A stretch of DNA of 64,000 nucleotides. It comes from Dehalococcoidales bacterium. Lineage in GTDB: Bacteria; Chloroflexota; Dehalococcoidia; Dehalococcoidales; UBA2162. Of the stretch, positions 31,188-41,060 are shown in pieces. Numbering within the stretch: the first letter of the stretch is position 1; each line of letters begins with the position of its first letter. The stretch spans positions 5,737-69,736 of the forward strand of contig JAUYHA010000135.1 of NCBI GenBank assembly GCA_030690265.1, given 5' to 3'. The position numbers and the translations under genes are program-made. Under the pieces are notes generated by a model. The model ran no database searches, had not been told where the DNA came from, and saw only the letters and a program-made list of their open reading frames with translations.

Positions 31188-31470
31188 ACCTGACTACCTT
31201 GAGGCTGTCTGAAAAATGTCATTCCGTGTCAAGCACGGAATGACATCTGACCGTTACCAAATAATCGTCCCCTCCTTTTTAAGGGAGGGGGTTCACACTG
31301 AAAGGCTCGTCCTGAAGACTCGCTCTGAAGAGTTCACTCTGCAGGGGATAAAAGGGAAAGTAAAATCCCCTCAGTCTCCCCCTGTTCAAGCCAGGGGCAA
31401 GCTCTTTACGGAAGGGAGACGCTTAATTCAGGTAGGGGGATTAAGGGGGAGGATTATCAAACCCTCAGAA

Positions 31471-31615
31471 CTAGTGTAGTGTCTCAGAGATACCTTTACA
31501 ATACACTTCATATTGTCATTCCCGCGAAAGCGGGAATCCAGCATCATTACCCCACCTGGATTCCGTATCAAGTACGGAATGACATTGTTAAGTTATTAGT
31601 GAGACACTACACTAG
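31471..31615. mobile_element. MITE-like element bounded by the 15-bp perfect TIR ctagtgtagtgtctc / gagacactacactag
   Basis: TIR at 31471..31485 and 31601..31615. The interior consists of PAL-C hairpins (cattcccgcgaaagcgggaatcc and attccgtatcaagtacggaat). The right TIR contains the stop codon of the methyltransferase gene. Confidence 0.65.
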
Positions 31616-32193
31616 CTGGACTTCCCCTTAATGCCGATGGCTACATAGAGCCTTTCAGTCCACTCGATGTATTGGAAGCCGGAAAAGCCGGCTTGCCTGA
31701 ATGAGCGCTCAATATCCTGCCTGGTTACCTGGTAGTCTTCGGGGTGGCTTGAATCCATGCCCTCTCTCCGTTCCAGCACCAGCACTTTACCTCCCGGTTT
31801 GAGCAGGCGAAACGCCTCGGCAATAAAAGCATCGGACTTCTCGTACTCGTGCAGGACTAAAGACAGGAGACAGAAATCGGCAATCCGGCTGTCCAGTCCG
31901 GTCCGGCTGGCGTCACTCTGAACCGGTATCAGGTTGGGGGGTGGAATCTTTGCCTGCACACTTTTTATCATTTCAGCATCATAATCCACGGCGTAAACTG
32001 TGCCTTCGGTGCCGACGCAAAGCACCATGGGGAAAGATAAAGCCCCCGGACCGCAACCCAGGTCAACACAGGTCATCCCCGGCTTTATCCCGGCTACCTC
32101 TTTGAAAAGCTCATCGGGCTTGAGGGATTTAAGCCTTTCTTCCCTGTCCATCCGCCGGGCCCTCTCTCTGGAATCAAAAACCTCTTCCGTCAT
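31612..32193 (-). CDS. class I SAM-dependent methyltransferase
   Basis: Motif I CVDLGCGPG, then VYAVDYD, then LKPGGKVLV. 193 aa. Confidence 0.8.
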   Translation of the reverse strand: MTEEVFDSRERARRMDREERLKSLKPDELFKEVAGIKPGMTCVDLGCGPGALSFPMVLCVGTEGTVYAVDYDAEMIKSVQAKIPPPNLIPVQSDASRTGLDSRIADFCLLSLVLHEYEKSDAFIAEAFRLLKPGGKVLVLERREGMDSSHPEDYQVTRQDIERSFRQAGFSGFQYIEWTERLYVAIGIKGKSS

Positions 32194-32816: not shown

Positions 32817-33791
32817 ATGAAAAAACGAGTTTTTTCCGGAGCCCGCCCTACCGGCAGGCAGCATATCGGCAACTACATTGGAGCAATACAGAACTATGTT
32901 GCTCTGCAGGATGAATACGAGTGCATCTACTGCCTGGTTGATATTCACGCTCTGAGCACCTTGGAAGACACCGGTAAGCTTCAGGAAAACATCTGTGAGA
33001 TGGTGCTTGACTGGCTGGCGGCCGGTCTTGACCCGGAGAAAAGCATTATCTTTGTCCAGTCCCATGTGCCGGAAGTGATGGAACTGCACACCTTTCTCAG
33101 TATGATTACTCCCCTGAGCTGGCTGCTGCGAGTGCCCACTTTTAAGGAAAAGGCAAAGCTCCAGCCTCACAATGTTAACTACGGGCTGGTTGGCTACCCG
33201 GTGCTGATGACGGCTGATATTCTACTTTATAAGGCTGAGGTGGTGCCCGTAGGTGAAGACCAGCTGCCCCACCTGGAGCTTGCCAGGGAGATTGTCCGGC
33301 GCTTCAATAACCAGTTCGGCGATACTTTCCCCGAACCTCAAGCCAGGCTTACTTCTTTCCCCATGATACTGGGGCTGGATGGCAGAGAGAAAATGAGCAA
33401 GCAGCTAAATAACCATATTGAGCTGGCTCTATCCGATAAAGAGACCCTGGCACGGGTGATGACGGCGGTTACCGACCCGGCTCGCCGCTACCGCACTGAC
33501 CCGGGACGCCCGGCAATATGCAATATCCATAAGCTTGATGCCTACTTCAACCCGCTTCAGAGAGAGCTGTTCGCCGCCCAGTGCCGCCGGGCTGAAATCG
33601 GCTGTGTTGAGCACAAGCAAATACTGGCTGAGCGGATTAATAGTGAGCTTAGACCGCTCCGTGAACGGCGGGCTGTCCTGGCCACTAAGCCACATTATGT
33701 AAATGAAGTTCTGGCTGACGGAGCCGGGCGCGCCAGGGTTATTGCCAGGGAAACCATTAAAGAAGTGAAAGAACGAATGAGACTTGTTTAG
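32817..33791 (+). CDS. trpS: tryptophan--tRNA ligase
   Basis: Class I signatures GARPTGRQHIGNY (HIGH-like) and KMSKQ (KMSKS-like), plus VPVGEDQLPHLEL. Confidence 0.92.
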   Translation: MKKRVFSGARPTGRQHIGNYIGAIQNYVALQDEYECIYCLVDIHALSTLEDTGKLQENICEMVLDWLAAGLDPEKSIIFVQSHVPEVMELHTFLSMITPLSWLLRVPTFKEKAKLQPHNVNYGLVGYPVLMTADILLYKAEVVPVGEDQLPHLELAREIVRRFNNQFGDTFPEPQARLTSFPMILGLDGREKMSKQLNNHIELALSDKETLARVMTAVTDPARRYRTDPGRPAICNIHKLDAYFNPLQRELFAAQCRRAEIGCVEHKQILAERINSELRPLRERRAVLATKPHYVNEVLADGAGRARVIARETIKEVKERMRLV

Positions 33792-33805
33792 GCAGGTGAG
33801 AGAAA

Positions 33806-34240
33806 TTGTTCTTTGAGGAGCTTAATATCGGTGATAAGTTTAATACCCGTCCCAGGGTGGTTACCGGAACGGAGATTGATAACTTCGCTGTTTCCACCGG
33901 ACTGATAAACCCTTTATTCCTGGATGATAAGGCTGCCCGGAGCAGAGGATTTGAAACCAGGATTGCCCCCGGTTATCTAACCCTATCCCTGACGGTGGGA
34001 GCGGTATATGCCCTTGGATTGCTTGACCACGGCCTTGCCCTCTTAAGTATCACCGTTAATTTTACTGCTCCGGTGCAGGCGGGGGATGAGATTAGAAGCA
34101 CGGTAGAGGTGGTTGAGAAAAATGAAACGCAAAACAGGGGACGGGGAATAGTTGCTTTTAAGATTATCTGCCAGAACCAGGAAGGTAAGCAGGTATTTGA
34201 GGTGCCGAAACTTGTCACCCTGCTGCTCCGGAGCAGTTAA
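33806..34240 (+). CDS. MaoC-like (R)-hydratase/hot-dog fold protein
   Basis: 144 aa with FAVSTGLINPLFLD..A and the later beta-sheet segments typical of MaoC dehydratase domains. Confidence 0.7.
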   Translation: MFFEELNIGDKFNTRPRVVTGTEIDNFAVSTGLINPLFLDDKAARSRGFETRIAPGYLTLSLTVGAVYALGLLDHGLALLSITVNFTAPVQAGDEIRSTVEVVEKNETQNRGRGIVAFKIICQNQEGKQVFEVPKLVTLLLRSS

Positions 34241-34256
34241 CAGGGATGAGGTTAAT

Positions 34257-34976
34257 GTGGAAGTAATTCCGGCTGTTGATATTAGAAATGGTAATTGTGT
34301 CCGTCTCTATCAGGGTGATTACAACCAGGAGACCGTTTTCTCGGATGACCCGGTAGAGGTAGCTTTAGAGTGGCAATCGCTGGGGGCATGCAGAATCCAC
34401 ATCGTTGACCTTGACGGTGCTGCCAGCGGTGAGGTCAGTAACCTGGATATTATTAAAAAGATAGCCACCGCCGTACTGGTACCGACTCAGCTCGGGGGTG
34501 GTATCCGCCGGATGGAAACTGTGGAACAATTGCTTAAAATGGGTATCGAGCGCCTGGTTCTGGGCACCGCTGCCGTGGAAAACCGGGAGCTGGTGGCGGA
34601 GGCATGCCGCAGGTTCGGCGAATCTATTATTGTCAGCCTTGATGCCAGGGAGGGATGGATTGCCGTTGACGGCTGGCAGCGGGAAACGAGGCTGCACGCC
34701 GTAGAAACGGCTAAATCCGCAGCCGAACTGGGGGTAAAACGTTTCATTTATACGGATATCAATCGTGATGGCACTCTCACCGAGCCTAATTTTACGGCTA
34801 TTGCCGAGCTTATCAATACCATCAGGTTGCCGGTTATTGCTGCCGGTGGCATTTCGTCACTGCTTCACCTCAAAATGCTGGACCAGCTCGGTGCTGAAGC
34901 TGCCATTATCGGTAAGGCACTCTACAGCGGAGAAATCAACTTTAAACAAGCCCTGGCTACTGTGAGCGGGATGTAA
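34257..34976 (+). CDS. hisA: 1-(5-phosphoribosyl)-5-[(5-phosphoribosylamino)methylideneamino]imidazole-4-carboxamide isomerase
   Basis: VIPAVDIRNGNCVRLYQGDY, IHIVDLDGA, QLGGGIR, TDINRDGT and IAAGGIS. The in-frame GTG at 34257 is preferred, because the ORF-track start at 34152 overlaps the MaoC gene. Confidence 0.9.
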   Translation: MEVIPAVDIRNGNCVRLYQGDYNQETVFSDDPVEVALEWQSLGACRIHIVDLDGAASGEVSNLDIIKKIATAVLVPTQLGGGIRRMETVEQLLKMGIERLVLGTAAVENRELVAEACRRFGESIIVSLDAREGWIAVDGWQRETRLHAVETAKSAAELGVKRFIYTDINRDGTLTEPNFTAIAELINTIRLPVIAAGGISSLLHLKMLDQLGAEAAIIGKALYSGEINFKQALATVSGM

Positions 34977-34999
34977 AAAAACGGAAACAAATTGTATCT

Positions 35000-35072
35000 G
35001 GGCCGCTAGCTCAACTGGCAGAGCAGCTGACTCTTAATCAGCAGGTTACAGGTTCGATTCCTGTGCGGCTCA
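35000..35072 (+). tRNA. tRNA-Lys (anticodon CTT)
   Basis: Cloverleaf: acceptor GGGCCGC/GCGGCUC, D stem GCUC/GAGC, anticodon stem GCUGA/UCAGC with loop cuCUUaa, T arm ACAGG-UUCGAUU-CCUGU. Confidence 0.9.
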
Positions 35073-35089
35073 TATTCAACTTTCTCTTC

Positions 35090-35120
35090 TTGACAGTCAA
35101 TGACCCCTGAGCCTTAATAT
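35090..35120 (+). promoter_or_regulatory. candidate promoter of the retron operon
   Basis: TTGACA at 35090..35095, then TTAATA/TAATAT at 35114..35120 (18-19 nt spacing). It begins 18 nt after the tRNA-Lys 3' end. Confidence 0.4.
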
Positions 35121-35274
35121 TAATAGTCAAAAATCACAATTTTTCTACTCAACAGATTGCATAACGTAATAACTGGGTGTAGATTATAGGAAAAGGCTAG
35201 AGTGGTTCGCATGGCATACGACTGGAAGAATAAACTCTGTTAGGGAAGTACAGAAATTTAGGGAAAAGCATTCC

Positions 35275-36183
35275 ATGATGTTACTTAATAATGTCGCGAA
35301 GGTTATTGCCGAAGGATTTACAAATGATTTAGAGGTATCCGCGGTCACTGTATTTTTGGCTGGAGGTAGTACTGAACGCAGAACCAGCATCAGGCCACAA
35401 TTGCGTAAGGAATTGAGAGGTCGTCGTTACGTCCGTGGGTATGATGTCCTTTACCCAGAAGAGCTTTTTGATGAGCTTATGGGAAGACAGCCTGACCGCG
35501 ACTTATTAAGTCTCGAAAATATGCTAGCTGGTAGTGCACATGCAATCATAATAATTGTAGAAAGCCCAGGTGCCATTGCCGAGCTCGGAGCATTCGCGAA
35601 TAGTGAACAACTGCGTCCTAAGCTGATTGCTATTGTCGACAAGAGATATAGAGGACGCAGAACCTTTATCATGTTAGGTCCTGTCGCACAACTTCGAAAT
35701 TTCCGTCAGGGGGCTGTCATTATGCATGATTTTGGAAAGCCCGATATATCAAAACTAGCAGAAGATGTACGTCGGTCTGTAAGAGGGATAATTAAAGACA
35801 CAAAGGTCGACGCAAGTCTAAGCAACCCGATTCGTGCACAATACTTCTTACTAGCTAGCCTTTTTGTGGCTGAGCCCATAGAGTTATCATATTTGATAAA
35901 ACTCTTGACCGCAACAGATGAATGTGATTTAGCGCTTGCTAATGTGGTTGCTACCACTGCTTTAAATATACTACTCCGTCAAGGAGAAGTTGCTTTAGAG
36001 GAAACTTCGTATCACCTAACTCCAAAAGGCAGACAACGTCTGACTGACATTATTAGAGATTCAAAGGATAGTCGCAAGTTTATTCAATTGTTTGATAAAT
36101 GCCGAGTTGATATACTAAATGCTGCTAGGAGCGGGTCACAGATATGGTATAAAGATATGCTTGTTAAGGGGGTATCATCTTAG
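35275..36183 (+). CDS. retron type II-A-like effector: N-terminal nucleoside 2-deoxyribosyltransferase-like (N-glycosidase) domain plus a C-terminal winged-helix-like domain
   Basis: 302 aa. VFLAGG...IIIIVESPGAIAELGAF resembles the Rossmann-like NDT fold with its conserved Glu. The C-terminal part (LLASLFVAEP..LLRQGEVALEE..YHLTPKGRQRL) looks like a wHTH. It lies directly upstream of the retron RT. Confidence 0.7.
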   Translation: MMLLNNVAKVIAEGFTNDLEVSAVTVFLAGGSTERRTSIRPQLRKELRGRRYVRGYDVLYPEELFDELMGRQPDRDLLSLENMLAGSAHAIIIIVESPGAIAELGAFANSEQLRPKLIAIVDKRYRGRRTFIMLGPVAQLRNFRQGAVIMHDFGKPDISKLAEDVRRSVRGIIKDTKVDASLSNPIRAQYFLLASLFVAEPIELSYLIKLLTATDECDLALANVVATTALNILLRQGEVALEETSYHLTPKGRQRLTDIIRDSKDSRKFIQLFDKCRVDILNAARSGSQIWYKDMLVKGVSS

Positions 36184-36321
36184 AACGGCCTGGACTTCGT
36201 GTTTGGGTCAGTGGGTAGCGATGCAGCTGCCCGTGTCGAAAGCTGGTCACCGATTCATCCAAATAGATACGTTAGCAGTATCTATTTGGACGATATAATT
36301 GAGAGTAAGATGTTACCCCCT
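36167..36321 (+). ncRNA. candidate retron msr-msd non-coding RNA
   Basis: a1 AGGGGGTATCATCTTA (36167..36182) pairs with a2 TAAGATGTTACCCCCT (36306..36321) at 15 of 16 positions. G36183 lies directly after a1 in a UUAG context. A 7-bp hairpin is at 36213..36232. A perfect 13-bp stem (36258..36270 with 36278..36290) lies in the msd position. The RT start is 30 nt downstream. Confidence 0.65.
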
Positions 36322-36350
36322 CCACCCTTAACTATTCTGGAGGTCGACTA

Positions 36351-37316
36351 GTGACTCAAGGTAGACATTATATCCTAAATCCCCTTATTCCTAAGCTGGA
36401 TAATCTGCGAGACCTCAGCACCGCAACACATTTATCACCCGGACTACTTTTCAGCCTCGCTAAACATAATAGTTGGTACTATCGGGTTTTTACAATTCCG
36501 AAATCTGCAGGTGGAGCAAGAGAGATTGCTGAACCAGCTAGACCTATGAAAGCAGTCCAATATTGGATCCTGAAGAATATCTTGCAGTATCTACCTCTTC
36601 ATCCAGCAGCGACAGGGTTCCGAAAAGACCAAAATGTCTTGAAAAATGCTCAGGTTCACAAAAACAATAAATACTTTTTATGCTTTGACCTGAATGATTT
36701 CTTCCCTTCAATTAAATATCCTTTCGTATATACCATATTCAATAGCCTCGGATATAATATGCATGTCAGCCATATACTAGCTTCTCTTTGCACATTTAAT
36801 GGTTACTTGCCACAAGGAGGTGTTACATCTCCTACCTTATCCAACCTTTGCTGCGTGAGATTAGACCGTCGAATTAGTGGCTATTGTGGGCTTCGTAATA
36901 TCGCTTATACACGCTACGCAGATGATATGACTTTTTCCTCCATGAATTCAAAGAGACTCGTCGGTCTCTATCAGCGAGCAAAAACTATAGTCGAGGATGA
37001 ACATTTTATCCTTAACGAAGCAAAAACTAGATATATGGGTCCTGCACGTAGGAGGAAAATTACTGGTCTAATTGTCGGTGACGGACAAGCTGGAATTGGA
37101 CGAAAATTAGAGAGAAAATTAAGAGCGTCCATATACAATTTAAGTCAAGCCAAACAATTAGCTGGTATTAGTTGGACTGATGAGCAACTTAAAGGGTGGA
37201 TTTCTTATATACATTCTGTTGACCCGAACCGCCACCAGCGTATGATTAAATATATTCGTGATCTATCTTCTAGGCTGAATTTGCCCATGTTGAAATCAAG
37301 GCTGGGCATTAATTAA
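36351..37316 (+). CDS. retron-type reverse transcriptase
   Basis: 321 aa. Motifs NAQVH (NAxxH), FDLNDFFPSI, LPQGGVTSPTLSN, YTRYADDMTFS (YADD) and RKITGLIVG (VTG-like). GTG start with GGAGG at 36339..36343. Confidence 0.9.
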   Translation: MTQGRHYILNPLIPKLDNLRDLSTATHLSPGLLFSLAKHNSWYYRVFTIPKSAGGAREIAEPARPMKAVQYWILKNILQYLPLHPAATGFRKDQNVLKNAQVHKNNKYFLCFDLNDFFPSIKYPFVYTIFNSLGYNMHVSHILASLCTFNGYLPQGGVTSPTLSNLCCVRLDRRISGYCGLRNIAYTRYADDMTFSSMNSKRLVGLYQRAKTIVEDEHFILNEAKTRYMGPARRRKITGLIVGDGQAGIGRKLERKLRASIYNLSQAKQLAGISWTDEQLKGWISYIHSVDPNRHQRMIKYIRDLSSRLNLPMLKSRLGIN

Positions 37317-37480
37317 TCATGGTATTAAGAAACCTATAATCGAAGCAGCAAAATAAAATTGCGTTTTCGCTTTAGGATGAATGCAATCTGCTAACATTTT
37401 TGCTGACGAACATCCTGCCATTGTTCTAAATTACGAACTCAAAACTCTTTCTAAAGGTTCTACTTTCTATCATAAACGGC

Positions 37481-38320
37481 TCACCAGCGGATGTTTATTT
37501 TTATGCCGCGGCCTTTGTATACTGGCTGTCTTTTCTCTCGGAGAGATTTGCCGGCCTCAGTGCGTTCTTCCTCCAGGACCAAACTGTTTGCCCATTCCTC
37601 ATAGATATATCCTTGCTCCAGGTCTTTGGGCGTAACCTCACCGCAGGCTCTTATCGCTCTCTTTGTGGCGAAGAGCACGCTGGGAGCTATTTGTTTCATC
37701 CTTTCAATCATGGCTTGAGAGTAAGGAATAAGCTCTTCGTGAGGGACAACCCGGTTCACCATGCCAATTCGCAGCATCTCCCGGGCATCAATGAAGTCAT
37801 TGGTATAGGCAAGCTCCAAGGTATGGCTCACCCCGATGAGCTTGGTCAGCCAGTATGAGCAGCCACTCCACGGCGGCGTGCCGCTCCTGGGGAAGAGCAC
37901 AGTGAACCTCGCCTGCTCGGAAGCTATCCTGATATCGCAGGCGGACATGATGTTGATAGCTCCGCCGGCGACAATACCGTTTACGGCGGCGATAATCGGC
38001 TTGTCAAAATAATGCATACGTTCAACCAGGCGGGGAGTTCCTGAAGTCAGCCCCAGAAGAGCCCGTTTCTCTTCTACCCGGTCGGAGTCATGACCTGTCT
38101 TATCACCTGTCCCTTGAAAAAGTCCGGAGCTAAAAGCCCGCCCCGCTCCGGTGAGAATCACCCCCCGCACCTCCGGGTCGGCACTCGCTTCATCTAAAGC
38201 AGCTAGCAGCTCCTCCCTCATCTGGAGACCATAAGCATTCAGTACTTCCGGCTTGTTTAAGGTGATGACCGCAGCTCCGGTGCCGGTATCTTTGTCATAG
38301 AGAATTTGAGTGTAAGTCAC
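37481..38320 (-). CDS. enoyl-CoA hydratase/isomerase (crotonase) family protein
   Basis: ITLNKPEVLNA, GAGRAFSSG, KPIIAAVNGIVAGGA. 279 aa. Confidence 0.85.
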   Translation of the reverse strand: MTYTQILYDKDTGTGAAVITLNKPEVLNAYGLQMREELLAALDEASADPEVRGVILTGAGRAFSSGLFQGTGDKTGHDSDRVEEKRALLGLTSGTPRLVERMHYFDKPIIAAVNGIVAGGAINIMSACDIRIASEQARFTVLFPRSGTPPWSGCSYWLTKLIGVSHTLELAYTNDFIDAREMLRIGMVNRVVPHEELIPYSQAMIERMKQIAPSVLFATKRAIRACGEVTPKDLEQGYIYEEWANSLVLEEERTEAGKSLREKRQPVYKGRGIKINIRW

Positions 38321-38349
38321 CTTCTATCATATACACAAAGCTGTCTAAT

Positions 38350-38497
38350 TGTCATTGCGAGGAGTCCTTCCTTGGAAGGACGACATGGCAATCTATATGA
38401 ATAATCTCAGAGATTGCTTCGCCTCCGCCTTCGGCGGATGGCTCGCAATGACAAAGTGTGATTGCGAGTCCTTATGAGAAGGACTCGCAACGACAGG
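38350..38497. repeat. PAL-A element plus an adjacent satellite hairpin
   Basis: tgtcattgcgag (38350) .. catggcaatct..agattgcttcg .. ctcgcaatgaca (38442..38453). This is followed by ttgcgagtcctt-atgag-aaggactcgcaa. Confidence 0.85.
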
Positions 38498-38511
38498 TTG
38501 AATCACCAGCA

Positions 38512-38796
38512 TTATTTTGGGGCTGGAGATGAAGAAGCAGCTTTATTCAGCTTTTTCATCAGGCGGGATTTGCGCCGGGCGGCATTATTGGCATGTAAAA
38601 TGCCCTTCTTTACCGCCTTATCAAGAGTGCTAACTGCGGCAACAACCTCTTTTTGAGCCGCCTCAAGCTCACCGGAGAAAATAAGCTTTTCCGCCTTGGT
38701 TATTCTGGTTTTACTCTGGGTGCGAACGGGCTTATTGCGAGCTCGCCTTTTTTCCGCCAGACGGGCCTCTTGTATGGCTGATTTGGTAATTGGCAC
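38512..38796 (-). CDS. rpsT: 30S ribosomal protein S20
   Basis: 94-aa basic protein. ITKSAIQEARLAEKRRARNKPVRTQSKT is typical of bS20. Confidence 0.9.
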   Translation of the reverse strand: MPITKSAIQEARLAEKRRARNKPVRTQSKTRITKAEKLIFSGELEAAQKEVVAAVSTLDKAVKKGILHANNAARRKSRLMKKLNKAASSSPAPK

Positions 38797-38882
38797 TATC
38801 TACCTCCCGAAATTTTCTATTGGGCTTTTGCCCTCTTTTAAAAGAGAATGGCTGGGTTAGCGGGGCTTTTTACTAAAGCACT

Positions 38883-41060
38883 TCAAGAACTAACTTCACC
38901 GAGCTCCCTTTCTATCCTCATAGCACTGAGCACACCCGGTATCCTCTCAATTTTATCCAGTAGCCGGTTTAGCTGTACCAGGTTTGCCGTCTCTAAAGTA
39001 ATGAAAATTGATACGCTCCCGTCATCATTATTGGTCAGGCTTACAGCAACAATGTTTATCTTTTCCTCGGCAACAAGGATGGTAATATCACGCATCAGCC
39101 CTACCCTGTCCCAGGCTTGAACCTGAATCGGGACCGGATACAGCGAGCTTCTCTCCCCCCACTCCACCGAAATTAACCTTTCCCTCTCATCTTCATTGAC
39201 CACATTATAACAGTCCTGGCGGTGCACCGTTACGCCCCGGGTGCGAGTAATATAGCCGATAATACTATCTCCCGGCAACGGGTGACAGCATTGGGCCAGA
39301 TGGGTGAGCAAGTCTCCTACTCCCTCTACCTTAACTGCCGAAATATTTTCCTTCGGCGGTGCCACTTCAACTAGCCGGGGCTGTTGCTGCTGGGCGGCAA
39401 ATTTCACCACAATCTGATGGGTAGTAATATCGCCACAACCAATGGCGCCATAGAAATCAGCCAGGCTAGCATACTGGAACAGCCTGGCTAACTTCTCCCG
39501 CTCCATAGACGCCACGCCCAGTTGCCTCATCGTTTTCTCCAGAAGCTCCCGGCCGCGCTCAATATTTTCCGTCCGTTCCTGCTTTTTGAACCACTGCCTT
39601 ATCTTTACTTTAGCGTGAGATGTTTTCACAAAACCCAGGGCAGGGTTAAGCCAGTCCCGGCTCGGTCCCCTTCCCCCCTTAACAGACATAATTTCAATGA
39701 CATCCCCGTTCTTAAGGTGATAGCTAAGAGGAACCAGGCGACCGTTTACTTTTGCCCCGCTGCAGTTATGTCCCAGATCAGTATGAACATGATAGGCGAA
39801 ATCAAGAGGGGTGGAGCCGATGGGCAAATCCTTTATCTCCCCCTTGGGCGTAAAAACAAAAACCTGGTCATTGAAGATATCGGTCTTCACTGATTCCAGG
39901 AATTCTTCGGCACCGCTCAGTTCCCGATGCCAATCGATTAACTGGCGCAACCAGCCTACCCTTTCCTCCAGGTTAATGTCCTGCTTACCGCCTTCTTTAT
40001 AGCGCCAGTGTGAAGCTACGCCGAACTCGGCAACCCGATGCATCTGATAGGTGCGAATCTGTATCTCTAAAGGAGTTACACCCTGATACATCACCGTGGT
40101 ATGTAAAGATTGATAACCGTTAGATTTGGGATTAGCAATAAAGTCATTAAACTGGGCAAGTATGGGGTGCCACAAATTATGAATCACCCCCAGAGCGGTA
40201 TAACAATCAGAGAGGCTATTAACCAGGACCCTGAGGGCAAAAAGGTCATAGATATCGTTAAAGTCTTTGCCTTGAGCAGCGTATTTTTCCATTTTCTGGT
40301 GAATGCTATAGATATGCTTGGGCCTGCCCAGTATCTCGGCATTTAGACCTACCCGCTCAAACTCCCGCTTCAGCTCCGGGATTACCTGTTTGATAAAGTC
40401 CTCACGCCGGAGGTGCTGACCAGCCACCAGCTGGACAACCTGGTGATATTTTCTTGGCTGCAGATAGCGAAAGGAGAGGTCCTCTAATTGCCATTTAAGT
40501 TCCCATATTCCCAGGCGGTGAGCCAGTGGTGCGTAAACCTCAGCGGTCTCCTGAGCAATAGTATGTCGTTTTTCTGGAGGTAGAGCATCTAAGGTTTGCA
40601 TATTATGTAATCGGTCAGCCAGCTTAATAAATACCACCCGCAGGTCTTCAGCCATCGCCACCAGCATTTTTCTCAGGTTCTCCACCTGCTCTCCCCGTGC
40701 TGCGATACTGCCCCGCTGTTTTGCTTCTATCGGCCCTCGTAAGGGAACCTTACCCAGCTTGGTAGTGCCGTCCACCAGCCTGGCTACCTCCGAACCAAAG
40801 CTAGCTTCAATCTCCGCAACAGGTATGCCACAGTTCTCGGGCACATCATGGAGCAACGCCGCAACCAGGGAGCCGGTATCAAGTTGAAGCTCAGCCAGAG
40901 TCAAAGCAACCTGTAACGGGTGCTCCAGGTAAGGTTCGCCTGACTTACGCATCTGACCCTCATGTGCCTTGCTGGCATAGCTGTAGGCATCTTCAACTAA
41001 AGCTATTTTTTCCAGGGGAAGATACCCCTGGACTTTCTCTCTCAATTGACTGAAAGCCAC
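38883..41060 (-). CDS. rel: bifunctional (p)ppGpp synthetase/hydrolase (RelA/SpoT homolog)
   Basis: HD hydrolase (HPLQVALTL..LHDVPE), synthetase block (YQSLHTTV), TGS domain and C-terminal ACT domain. The in-frame GTG at 41060 (VAFSQLREKV) is preferred. The ORF-track start at 41294 would overlap the divergent flavoprotein gene. Confidence 0.9.
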   Translation of the reverse strand: MAFSQLREKVQGYLPLEKIALVEDAYSYASKAHEGQMRKSGEPYLEHPLQVALTLAELQLDTGSLVAALLHDVPENCGIPVAEIEASFGSEVARLVDGTTKLGKVPLRGPIEAKQRGSIAARGEQVENLRKMLVAMAEDLRVVFIKLADRLHNMQTLDALPPEKRHTIAQETAEVYAPLAHRLGIWELKWQLEDLSFRYLQPRKYHQVVQLVAGQHLRREDFIKQVIPELKREFERVGLNAEILGRPKHIYSIHQKMEKYAAQGKDFNDIYDLFALRVLVNSLSDCYTALGVIHNLWHPILAQFNDFIANPKSNGYQSLHTTVMYQGVTPLEIQIRTYQMHRVAEFGVASHWRYKEGGKQDINLEERVGWLRQLIDWHRELSGAEEFLESVKTDIFNDQVFVFTPKGEIKDLPIGSTPLDFAYHVHTDLGHNCSGAKVNGRLVPLSYHLKNGDVIEIMSVKGGRGPSRDWLNPALGFVKTSHAKVKIRQWFKKQERTENIERGRELLEKTMRQLGVASMEREKLARLFQYASLADFYGAIGCGDITTHQIVVKFAAQQQQPRLVEVAPPKENISAVKVEGVGDLLTHLAQCCHPLPGDSIIGYITRTRGVTVHRQDCYNVVNEDERERLISVEWGERSSLYPVPIQVQAWDRVGLMRDITILVAEEKINIVAVSLTNNDDGSVSIFITLETANLVQLNRLLDKIERIPGVLSAMRIERELGEVSS

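What the first reader, a model, noticed from the sequence alone, without database searches (positions are those of the whole stretch)
36167..36321. Hand-resolved msr-msd candidate: 16-nt a1/a2 stem, UUAG branch context and a perfect 13-bp msd hairpin
AGGGGGUAUCAUCUUA (36167..36182) pairs antiparallel with UAAGAUGUUACCCCCU (36306..36321) at 15 of 16 positions, with a single U-U mismatch. These arms enclose 123 nt. A G (36183) follows a1 immediately in the context CUUAG, similar to the UUAG branching context of Ec86. The 5' half contains a 7-bp hairpin (GGGUAGC-GAUGCA-GCUGCCC, 36213..36232). The 3' half contains a perfect 13-bp stem with a 7-nt loop (UCCAAAUAGAUAC-GUUAGCA-GUAUCUAUUUGGA, 36258..36290), which is where an msd stem would lie. 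The RT start codon is 30 nt downstream of a2. This matches the canonical a1-msr-msd-a2-ret layout, although the total length (about 155 nt) is at the short end for retron ncRNAs.
Basis: seen in the sequence. Interest (0 to 1): 0.8.

Follow-up and report, generated by a model that had tools for sequence, protein, structure and literature searches.

The report
Ec86-like retron template RNA gene
The flagged 155-base stretch is very probably the non-coding RNA (msr-msd) of an ordinary Ec86/Retron-Eco1-type anti-phage retron in an uncultured Dehalococcoidales bacterium: a correct call, but a new member of a well-known kind of system.

Summary
The 15/16 a1/a2 stem, the 7-bp hairpin, the perfect 13-bp hairpin and the CUUAG context all sit at the stated coordinates. 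The fold is far more stable than shuffles (z = -5.0).

The element lies between an NDT-like "retron St85 family" effector gene (35275-36183) and a retron RT gene (36351-37316). Among solved structures, both proteins match the Ec86/Retron-Eco1 proteins best.

E. coli Ec86 has the same layout: effector, then ncRNA, then RT. In Ec86 the last G of the effector's TAG stop codon also falls in the CUUAG just after a1, where I recall the branching G lies.

In homologous loci (RT 32-83% identical), four helices are kept through many compensatory changes: a1/a2, two msr hairpins and the msd hairpin. CUUAG and GUAAG at the inner end of a1/a2 are conserved. A covariance model built only from this clade ranks the Ec86 ncRNA position first in the Ec86 locus, in register.

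The rival site, the leader at 35075-35274, is neither conserved nor structured.

From alignment to Ec86 I predict branching at G36183, first template base A36304, and an msDNA of about 63 nt. These details and the defence function are inferred, not shown. Novelty: new member of a known kind (type II-A3).

The parts
35275..36183 (+). [quoted passage not shown] Its last 17 nt overlap a1 and its TAG stop ends in the predicted branching G.
   Evidence: NCBIfam NF038232, 137.7 bits against a cutoff of 100. PADLOC NDT_II-A PDLC02930, 2.5e-68, which is also the best model for the Ec86 effector. 30% identical to the Ec86 effector, E 5e-40, with the ESPG...ELGAF motif kept. Best PDB match is the Ec86 effector 7v9x_C, 1.3e-33. 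GenBank MDP2730683.1.
36167..36321 (+). Retron ncRNA gene (msr-msd), from a1 to a2.
   Evidence: MFE z = -5.0. The covariance model hits only here in the window, 161.6 bits on + against 15.4 bits on -. Covariation. In register with the Ec86 ncRNA.
36167..36182 (+). a1, the 5' arm of the closing stem (P1).
   Evidence: 15 of 16 positions pair with a2. In 7 loci, 7 of the 16 pairs change on both sides. In the 16-sequence model-fitted alignment all 16 pairs do.
36183..36183 (+). Predicted branching G, whose 2'-OH would prime reverse transcription. It is the last base of the effector's TAG stop codon.
   Evidence: Invariant in CTTAG in the 7 closest loci. It aligns to the G of CCCUUAG in Ec86. 26 of 45 effector-RT gaps close their a1/a2 stem with ...TAG/GTA.... 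That this Ec86 G is the branch point is from my memory. The branch chemistry was not tested.
36187..36209 (+). msr hairpin 1 (P2): 9 bp with several G-U pairs.
   Evidence: Present in the MFE. 4 of 9 pairs change on both sides in 7 loci. The G-U pairs would be C-A on the other strand, so they fix the strand.
36213..36232 (+). msr hairpin 2 (P3): 7 bp. The most conserved helix of the family and the likely RT recognition stem-loop.
   Evidence: 100% of cells paired in both alignments. Conserved G.G...G.t.cG...c.C pattern across 16 sequences. In the Eco1 and Eco7 structures, SL2 and its linkers are what the RT recognises (PMC12673091).
36235..36243 (+). Invariant single-stranded linker GUCGAAAGC between the msr hairpins and the msd. 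Predicted RT-contact and termination region.
   Evidence: Invariant in 7 loci. The core gaaA.C is conserved in 16 sequences. It aligns to UUGAAUCUG of Ec86, where by my recollection the msDNA ends. The role is inferred.
36242..36304 (+). Predicted msd template. Copied 3' to 5' from A36304 to about G36242, it would give an msDNA of about 63 nt: 5'-TCTCAATTATATCGTCCAAATAGATACTGCTAACGTATCTATTTGGATGAATCGGTGACCAGC-3'.
   Evidence: Ends transferred from the Ec86 msDNA ends (recalled from memory, located on L122) through the model alignment. The 5' end rests on the conserved GUAAG. The 3' end rests on a weak alignment, so allow several nt either way. As DNA it folds to a hairpin, -12.9 kcal/mol, z = -5.4.
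36258..36290 (+). msd hairpin (P4): perfect 13-bp stem with a 7-nt loop.
   Evidence: The sequence varies between loci but pairing is kept: 7 of 13 pairs change on both sides in 7 loci, and 12 of 12 in 16 sequences. L036 has a stem-loop about 34 nt longer.
36290..36297 (+). Invariant ACGAUAUA at the 3' base of the msd hairpin. Specific to the close subclade.
   Evidence: Invariant in the 7 closest loci but not in more distant relatives. Role unknown.
36305..36305 (+). The G opposite the branching G, directly 5' of a2 (GUAAG). The base before it, A36304, is the predicted first template base.
   Evidence: GTAAG is invariant in 7 loci and aligns to GUAAG of Ec86. The ...TAG/GTA... junction recurs across the family.
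36306..36321 (+). a2, the 3' arm of the closing stem (P1).
36339..36343 (+). GGAGG ribosome-binding site, 7 nt before the RT start codon.
   Evidence: Read from the sequence. The GGAGG-spacer-(A/G)TGACT arrangement is aligned in the close relatives.
36351..37316 (+). Retron reverse transcriptase gene (321 aa, GTG start), carrying NAQVH (region X), YADD (catalytic) and ITG (region Y).
   Evidence: NCBIfam NF038233, 284.1 bits against a cutoff of 235. PADLOC RT_II-A PDLC02941, 8e-114, which is also the best model for the Ec86 RT. 40% identical to the Ec86 RT, E 3e-78. Best PDB match is the Ec86 RT 8qbk, 237.8 bits, against 113.8 for the next retron RT. Motif residues N99 A100 H103, Y189-D192 and T238 G239 are invariant in 25 homologues. 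GenBank MDP2730684.1.

Best explanation
Bases 36167-36321 (+) are the msr-msd non-coding RNA gene of a three-part type II-A3 retron of the Ec86/Retron-Eco1 kind. It sits in a low-GC cassette of about 2.4 kb next to tRNA-Lys in a Dehalococcoidales MAG.

Proposed mechanism:
1. The RNA is transcribed with, or from within, the effector-ncRNA-RT operon.
2. a1 and a2 pair. This places G36183 opposite G36305 at the inner end of the stem.
3. The RT (36351-37316) recognises msr hairpin 2 and the GUCGAAAGC linker.
4. The RT primes DNA synthesis from the 2'-OH of G36183 and starts copying at A36304.
5. It copies through the 13-bp msd hairpin and stops near 36242. Host RNase H removes the copied template.
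6. The product is a branched RNA-DNA molecule with about 63 nt of hairpin DNA.
7. By analogy with Retron-Eco1, the RT-msDNA complex binds the NDT-like N-glycosidase effector (35275-36183) and holds it in check. Phage interference with the msDNA then releases NAD(P)+ hydrolysis and aborts the infection.

Shown here: the structure, its covariation, the gene order, and homology of all three parts to Ec86.
Inferred: the branch point, the msDNA ends, effector control, the defence role and the trigger.
For: Structure:
- All described pairings are present.
- MFE z = -5.0.

Proteins:
- Both flanking ORFs exceed the curated NCBIfam retron cutoffs.
- Both share their best PADLOC sub-models with Ec86.
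- Both have Ec86 chains as their best PDB matches.
- Identity to Ec86 is 40% for the RT and 30% for the effector.

Layout:
- Ec86 in E. coli BLR(DE3) has the same order, with the effector's TAG overlapping the start of msr.
- 62 of 87 related loci carry the effector upstream on the same strand. None carries it downstream.

Covariation:
- MAFFT alignment of 7 loci: 90.6% paired against 36-44% for slid controls, 19 pairs changed on both sides, 0 of 500 shuffles.
- RNAalifold finds the same four helices on its own.
- A model search finds the element just upstream of the RT in 19 loci. On the 16 distinct sequences, 40 of 44 pairs change on both sides (this alignment is fitted to the model).
- CUUAG and GUAAG are conserved.

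Homology of the RNA:
- The clade-only model, run with filters off on the 5-kb Ec86 locus, ranks 2500-2676 first (18.3 bits, rough E 3.5e-4). That interval begins at the msr match (2501-2582) and spans the a1/a2 arms read.
- All four helices and both junction motifs align.

Literature:
- The Eco1 ncRNA has four helices, P1-P4 (PMC8989520).
- Eco1 is type II-A3, and its RT-msDNA complex forms filaments with the N-glycosidase that hydrolyse NAD(P)+ (PMC12673091).
Against: - No experimental data exist for this locus. msDNA synthesis, the 2'-5' branch, the msDNA ends and defence are all inferred.
- The match to the Ec86 ncRNA is weak in bits, and E-values from the shortened calibration are rough.
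- The predicted 3' end of the msDNA rests on an alignment of unpaired, poorly conserved bases.
- The Ec86 msr sequence, branch position and msDNA ends came from my memory. Only the msr sequence was verified, by its 100% match in E. coli genomes.
- The predicted msd has no CCWGG site. The Dcm-methylation trigger known for Ec86 therefore probably does not apply, and the sensing step is unknown.
- No promoter or terminator was identified.
- Rfam has no match, but it also misses the Ec86 ncRNA, so this says nothing.
- The sequence comes from a MAG, so expression in the host cannot be assumed.
Confidence: 0.88

Rival explanations
1. The real msr-msd lies in the 200-nt leader between tRNA-Lys and the effector gene (35075-35274), giving the order ncRNA-effector-RT as recalled for St85/Sen2 and Ec73. 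The 36167-36321 structure would then be something else.
For: NCBIfam labels both proteins 'St85 family'. From memory, type II-A1 retrons place the ncRNA upstream of the effector. The leader is long enough, about 200 nt.
Against: - The leader does not align with the leaders of the closest relatives.
- Its fold is no better than shuffles (z = +0.27).
- It has no model hit even with filters off.
- The 'St85 family' label also covers Ec86's own proteins, so it does not imply a type II-A1 layout.
- The proteins are closest to Ec86, whose ncRNA lies between effector and RT.
Confidence: 0.02
2. The conserved structure is a cis-acting RNA element of the effector-RT operon and is not reverse-transcribed in this lineage. 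It could be a processing site, a translational coupler or attenuator for the RT, or a protein-binding scaffold. This would be a retron-derived system that has lost msDNA synthesis.
For: No msDNA data exist for this clade. The element overlaps the end of the effector ORF and ends 29 nt before the RT start, a position where regulatory structures also occur.
Against: - The RT keeps YADD, NAxxH and the (V/I)TG motif.
- The branching-G and opposing-G junction, which is only needed for priming, is conserved across the family including Ec86.
- The variable-sequence, variable-length but always paired msd hairpin is typical of a template whose product matters as a structure.
Confidence: 0.06
3. The inverted repeats and hairpins are chance features of an intergenic spacer.
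For: None beyond the general fact that short hairpins are common.
Against: z = -5.0. Only two such inverted repeats occur in 64 kb and none in the shuffles. Covariation holds across loci at 32-83% RT identity.
Confidence: 0.01

Closest known systems
Retron-Eco1 (Ec86), type II-A3, E. coli B/BL21
   Same: - The gene order is effector, ncRNA, RT. The effector's TAG stop falls in the CUUAG after a1.
- a1 ends in CUUA-G and a2 begins G-UAAG.
- The ncRNA has four helices: P1 (a1/a2), two msr hairpins and an msd hairpin (PMC8989520).
- The RT is 40% identical and the effector 30% identical. Both share their best PADLOC sub-models with Ec86 and have Ec86 chains as best PDB matches.
- The ESPG motif is kept in the effector.
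   Different: - The predicted msDNA is shorter: about 63 nt against 85-86.
- The msd stem is simpler: 13 bp perfect, against a long stem I recall as bulged.
- The msd has no CCWGG Dcm site, so the trigger is probably different.
- The close subclade has its own invariant motifs, GUCGAAAGC and ACGAUAUA.
- The host is an uncultured Dehalococcoidales bacterium (Chloroflexota), not an enterobacterium, and the cassette is not inside a P2-like prophage.
Retron-Sen2 (St85), Retron-Eco3 (Ec73), Retron-Vch2 (Vc81): type II-A1
   Same: Same effector class: NDT-like plus a DNA-binding domain (cluster 42 of PMC7736814). The same NCBIfam 'St85 family' names apply.
   Different: - The RT belongs to a different clade (clade 1 against clade 9 in PMC7736814, Table 1), with a different ncRNA family (IA/IIA1).
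- From memory, the ncRNA of those retrons precedes the effector gene. Here the leader carries no such element.
- The window proteins score much lower on the other PADLOC II-A sub-models.
Uncharacterised metagenomic relatives (loci L116-L121, L036, L037 and others)
   Same: Same three-part cassette and the same ncRNA, at 150-169 bits to the model in the seven L116-L121/L037 loci and 137 bits in L036, with RT identity of 57-83%.
   Different: - They sit in different genomic neighbourhoods.
- In L116, L117 and L120 the effector stops 20 nt before a1 rather than inside it.
- L036 has a longer AT-rich msd stem.

Membership tests
Retron (general) | Retron-type RT with the catalytic YxDD motif, region X (NAxxH) and region Y ((V)TG) | tested here: met
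   YADD, NAQVH and ITG are present and invariant or nearly so in 25 homologues. NF038233 scores 284 bits against a cutoff of 235. Motif definitions are from PMC7736814.
Retron (general) | Adjacent ncRNA with terminal inverted repeats a1/a2 enclosing 1-3 msr hairpins and a stable msd stem-loop, supported by covariation | tested here: met
   Four helices, 19 of 45 pairs changed on both sides in 7 loci, 0 of 500 shuffles reach this.
Retron (general) | Conserved branching G directly 3' of a1, with an opposing G directly 5' of a2 | tested here: met
   G36183 and G36305. CUUAG and GUAAG are invariant in the 7 closest loci. The same junction appears in 26 of 45 family gaps, including Ec86. This tests the sequence only.
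Retron (general) | Production of msDNA joined to the msr RNA by a 2'-5' phosphodiester bond | not testable with these tools
   Needs expression, msDNA purification, and debranching or sequencing.
Type II-A3 (Retron-Eco1/Ec86-like) | Effector with an N-terminal NDT-like (N-glycosidase) domain and a C-terminal DNA-binding domain, of the Ec86 sub-cluster | tested here: met
   NF038232, 137.7 bits against a cutoff of 100. PDLC02930 is the best model for both this protein and the Ec86 effector. The PDB match to the Ec86 effector, 1.3e-33, covers residues 13-260.
Type II-A3 (Retron-Eco1/Ec86-like) | RT of the Ec86 clade rather than the St85/Ec73 clade | tested here: met
   PDLC02941 is the best model for both RTs, and the runner-up models fall in nearly the same order. 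The Ec86 RT is the best PDB match at 238 bits, against 114 for Ec83 and 95 for Ec78. No phylogenetic tree was built.
Type II-A3 (Retron-Eco1/Ec86-like) | Gene order effector, ncRNA, RT, with the ncRNA in the gap of about 170-300 nt | tested here: met
   Ec86 locus. Window. 62 of 87 related loci. Model hits lie directly upstream of the RT in 18 of the 19 loci and about 170 nt upstream in L042.
Type II-A3 (Retron-Eco1/Ec86-like) | ncRNA homologous to the Ec86 ncRNA | tested here: met
   The clade-only model ranks L122:2500-2676 first: 18.3 bits, rough E 3.5e-4 for a 5-kb search, next hit 8.6 bits. Helices and junction motifs are in register. The score is weak and the calibration was shortened.
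Type II-A3 (Retron-Eco1/Ec86-like) | RT-msDNA-effector filament, NAD(P)+ hydrolysis, anti-phage abortive infection | not testable with these tools
   Known for Eco1 (PMC12673091 and references there). Would need biochemistry and phage assays.
Type II-A3 (Retron-Eco1/Ec86-like) | Dcm (CCWGG) target in the msd stem. This is the trigger site of Ec86 itself, not a family-defining feature. | tested here: not met
   No CCWGG between 36242 and 36304. The only CCTGG is at 36189 in msr hairpin 1.
Type II-A1 (St85/Sen2-like) | ncRNA of the IA/IIA1 family located upstream of the effector gene (the layout is recalled from memory) | tested here: not met
   The leader at 35075-35274 is unconserved, unstructured and has no model hit. 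No IA/IIA1 model was available to test directly.

The most novel reading that the evidence does not exclude
This subclade is found in metagenomes, and the few members that carry a taxonomic label include Chloroflexota. It may make an unusually compact msDNA of about 60 nt, built around a short AT-rich hairpin with no Dcm site. If so, it senses a phage cue other than the cytosine methylation that fires Ec86. The subclade-invariant ACGAUAUA and GUCGAAAGC motifs would then be specific determinants of initiation, termination or effector contact. A minimal, naturally short Ec86-type template could also be a useful scaffold for retron editing.
Probability: 0.35. Interest if true: 0.4.

Novelty: new member of a known kind. 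Interest (0 to 1): 0.28.

Why it matters
It completes the annotation of a defence system whose two proteins GenBank already names but whose RNA component is not in the protein records retrieved here. Without that RNA the system cannot work or be re-used.

Two points are of practical use. First, Rfam 15 has no model that detects even the Ec86 ncRNA. Second, a small clade-specific covariance model found the element in 19 loci. Together these show how such ncRNAs can be annotated in metagenomes.

It also documents an Ec86-type retron in Dehalococcoidales with a short msd that lacks the Ec86 trigger site. That hints at trigger diversity within type II-A3. None of this changes how retrons are understood.

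Tried and rejected
- **Rfam scans.** Scans of 33000-39000 and 36100-36400 at E <= 10 found no retron family. The positive control on the Ec86 ncRNA also found nothing, so this negative carries no information.
- **Genome-contig scan.** A scan with the single RT returned only relatives at 30-41% identity, mostly from Bacteroidales. These were not used for the RNA analysis. Close relatives came from the protein search plus contig look-ups and from the metagenome scan.
- **Second covariance model.** The iterative search was therefore not extended, and 26 of 45 gaps were assessed only by a simple stem scan.
- **Leader as the ncRNA site.** Rejected.
- **Island boundaries.** No direct repeat of the tRNA-Lys 3' end was found in the window, and I saw no integrase-like ORF in the ORF lists, though only some of those ORFs were scanned. 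The cassette is marked only by low GC.
- **tRNA near relatives.** A tRNA-like string in the leaders of L116, L117 and L120 suggested an adjacent tRNA, but ARAGORN finds none in those loci.
- **Promoter and terminator scan.** It gave nothing above the shuffle background. The best '-10' hit lies inside the msd hairpin and is not credible.
- **Plasmid tblastn.** Only matches at or below 38% identity.
Full report
**1. The observation.**
- a1 (36167-36182, AGGGGGTATCATCTTA) pairs with a2 (36306-36321, TAAGATGTTACCCCCT) at 15 of 16 positions. The exception is one U-U. The arms are 123 nt apart.
- G36183 follows a1 in the context CTTAG.
- 36213-36232 forms a 7-bp hairpin, with one U-G wobble.
- 36258-36290 is a perfect 13-bp stem with a 7-nt loop.
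- The next ORF starts with GTG at 36351, 29 nt after a2, behind a GGAGG at 36339-36343.

RNAfold of 36150-36340 gives -71.3 kcal/mol, against -49.6 +/- 4.3 for 200 dinucleotide shuffles (z = -5.0).

In the whole 64-kb window only two inverted repeats reach 16 nt with at most 1 mismatch at spacing 20-300. Five shuffles gave none.

**2. The surroundings.**
- The ORF 35275-36183 (302 aa) ends with the TAG inside CUUAG, so a1 overlaps its last 17 nt. It scores above the curated cutoff of NCBIfam NF038232, "retron St85 family effector protein" (137.7 against 100 bits). It also hits PADLOC NDT_II-A at 2.5e-68.
- The ORF 36351-37316 (321 aa) scores above the cutoff of NF038233, "retron St85 family RNA-directed DNA polymerase" (284 against 235 bits). 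It hits PADLOC RT_II-A at 8e-114 and Pfam RVT_1. It carries NAQVH, YADD and ITG, and these residues are invariant in 25 homologues.
- Exact-sequence look-up places the window in a 75-kb contig of a Dehalococcoidales MAG. GenBank already names both proteins as retron proteins: MDP2730683.1 and MDP2730684.1.
- The cassette (about 35075-37480) has 37-44% GC, against 50-54% in the flanks. It lies directly 3' of tRNA-Lys(CTT), between hisA and an enoyl-CoA hydratase gene, with rpsT and relA/spoT further on. I saw no integrase-like ORF there, and there is no repeat of the tRNA end.

**3. Comparison with Ec86.**
I recalled the Ec86 msr sequence from memory. It matched 48 E. coli genomes at 100% identity. 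In BLR(DE3) the annotated "retron St85 family effector protein" ends at locus position 2514. The msr match starts at 2501, and the RT gene follows.

The sequence there reads ...TGCGCACCCTTAG...GACGTAAGGGTGCGCA. Three things follow.
- Ec86 has the same order: effector, ncRNA, RT.
- Ec86 has the same CUUA-G / G-UAAG junction.
- The effector's stop codon in Ec86 also ends in the G of CUUAG. That this G is the branch point is from my memory of the Ec86 literature.

The window RT is 40% identical to the Ec86 RT (E 3e-78), and the effector is 30% identical (E 5e-40), with the ESPG...ELGAF segment kept. Among all PDB chains the best matches are the Ec86 RT (237.8 bits; the next retron RT, Ec83, scores 113.8) and the Ec86 effector (1.3e-33). 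The Ec86 proteins hit the same best PADLOC sub-models, PDLC02941 and PDLC02930, as the window proteins.

Mestre et al. and later work class Ec86 as type II-A3 (PMC7736814, Table 1; PMC12673091). The NCBIfam "St85 family" label is therefore broad and does not imply the St85 (II-A1) layout.

**4. Comparative test of the RNA.**
A protein search found RT homologues at 44-91% identity. Contig look-ups and a metagenome scan supplied their DNA.

*Conservation in the closest loci.* In the seven closest loci (RT identity 57-83%), the effector-RT gap aligns along its length. Invariant blocks are CTTAG, GTCGAAAGC (36235-36243), ACGATATA (36290-36297) and G.GTAAG. In L116, L117 and L120 the effector stops at a TGA 20 nt before a1, yet CTTAG is unchanged. 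It is therefore conserved for the RNA and not merely as a stop codon.

*Covariation without structure fitting.* On this MAFFT alignment, which was not fitted to any structure:
- the four helices are 90.6% paired, against 36-44% when partners are slid by 1-3 columns;
- 19 of 45 pairs change on both sides;
- no shuffle of 500 reaches any of the five measures.

RNAalifold, given only the alignment, returns the same four helices, with 16 compensatory pairs.

*Covariance model search.* A model built from these seven sequences found 19 hits in 88 sources. In 18 of these the hit ends within about 15-55 nt of the RT gene; L042 is the outlier, with about 170 nt in between. It hit only one place in the window, at 161.6 bits on + against 15.4 bits on -. 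On the 16 distinct sequences, 40 of 44 pairs change on both sides at 91.8% pairing. That alignment is model-fitted, so it leans towards the structure. Element lengths are 147-212 nt, so 155 nt is typical.

*Family-wide layout.*
- tblastn shows the effector upstream on the same strand in 62 of 87 loci and never downstream.
- A simple scan of 45 distinct gaps finds an a1/a2 stem closed by ...TAG/GTA... in 26, including Ec86.

*Link to Ec86.* The clade-only model, run without filters on the 5-kb Ec86 locus, ranks 2500-2676 first (18.3 bits, rough E 3.5e-4; the next hit scores 8.6 bits). That interval begins at the msr match (2501-2582) and spans the a1/a2 arms read. a1/a2, both msr hairpins, the msd hairpin, CUUAG and GUAAG are all in register.

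**5. The rival location.**
The leader at 35075-35274 does not align with the leaders of the closest relatives. It folds no better than shuffles (z = +0.27) and has no model hit. It is rejected as the ncRNA site.

Rfam finds nothing at either place, but it also finds nothing on the Ec86 ncRNA. Rfam is therefore uninformative here.

**6. How it most likely works.**
The Ec86 msDNA ends come from my memory and were located on the fetched sequence. The template starts at the C just before GUAAG and ends at UCUGAG. This gives 86 nt, or 85 in the recent structures (PMC12673091).

Transferring these ends through the model alignment predicts the following for the window:
- priming from G36183;
- first template base A36304;
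- termination opposite about G36242, inside the invariant GUCGAAAGC linker;
- an msDNA of about 63 nt.

As DNA, this product folds into the 13-bp hairpin (-12.9 kcal/mol, z = -5.4). The 5' end rests on a conserved motif. The 3' end rests on a weak alignment of unpaired bases and could be off by several nucleotides.

In Eco1 and Eco7 the RT recognises stem-loop 2 of the msr and its linkers, and these define where synthesis stops. RNase H1 also contributes (PMC12673091, PMC8989520). Here, hairpin 2 and the following GAAA(G)C are the most conserved parts across the family, which fits that role.

By analogy with Eco1, the RT-msDNA complex would bind the N-glycosidase effector and restrain it. Perturbing the msDNA would then release NAD(P)+ hydrolysis (PMC12673091). 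The predicted msd contains no CCWGG, so the Dcm trigger of Ec86 probably does not apply here.

All of section 6 is inference.

**7. Verdict.**
This is the ncRNA of an Ec86-like type II-A3 retron: a new member of a known kind, from a host lineage where retrons have had little attention. A text search for retron together with Dehalococcoid* returned only two papers, each mentioning both words only once or twice and neither on the topic.

It is a good catch from raw sequence, but it would not surprise a specialist. The modest points of interest are:
- the short msd without a Dcm site;
- the subclade-invariant motifs;
- the lack of any Rfam model for this ncRNA family.

Noticed in passing
window 31469-31617: This is the only other long inverted repeat in the window. 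Its arms are about 19 nt (CTAGTGTAGTGTCTCAGAG ... TGAGACACTACACTAG) and lie 111 nt apart. They enclose two internal hairpins, CATTCCCGCGAAAGCGGGAATCC and GGATTCCGTATCAAGTACGGAATG. It lies between a small ORF and a methyltransferase-like gene on the minus strand. It could be a MITE- or REP-like element or a structured RNA.
   Followed up: no
window 34999-37480: The retron cassette is a compact low-GC insert (0.37-0.44, against 0.50-0.54 in the flanks). It sits directly 3' of tRNA-Lys(CTT), among housekeeping genes: trpS, hisA, an enoyl-CoA hydratase gene, rpsT and relA/spoT. I saw no integrase-like ORF, and there is no direct repeat of the tRNA 3' end. How it was acquired is unclear.
   Followed up: partly
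L116:40-110, L117:~935-1000, L120:~600-660 (leaders upstream of the effector gene): The three closest relatives share a conserved leader block, GCAGCGGCTGGATTTGAACCAGCGACTAAATTGTTTGACTACCAATCAAAA. It looks like the reverse complement of a tRNA T-arm and acceptor end. ARAGORN finds no tRNA gene there. It may be a tRNA fragment left at an integration site. The window's leader is unrelated.
   Followed up: partly
L122:2500-2676 (E. coli Ec86 locus) and Rfam 15: Rfam release 15 gives no retron-related match to the Ec86 ncRNA even at E <= 10. The current public RNA family library therefore cannot annotate this class of retron ncRNA.
   Followed up: yes
L122:2677-2736: RefSeq annotates the Ec86 RT from an internal ATG (locus 2734; 301 aa). 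The PDB Ec86 RT chains are 320-349 aa, and an in-frame ATG lies at 2677, 7 nt after a2. The RefSeq start is probably too far downstream.
   Followed up: partly
L036:2380-2450: In this relative (RT about 60% identical) the msd stem-loop carries an extra stretch of about 34 nt that is very AT-rich. The rest of the ncRNA is conserved. This is a natural example of msd length variation within one subclade.
   Followed up: no
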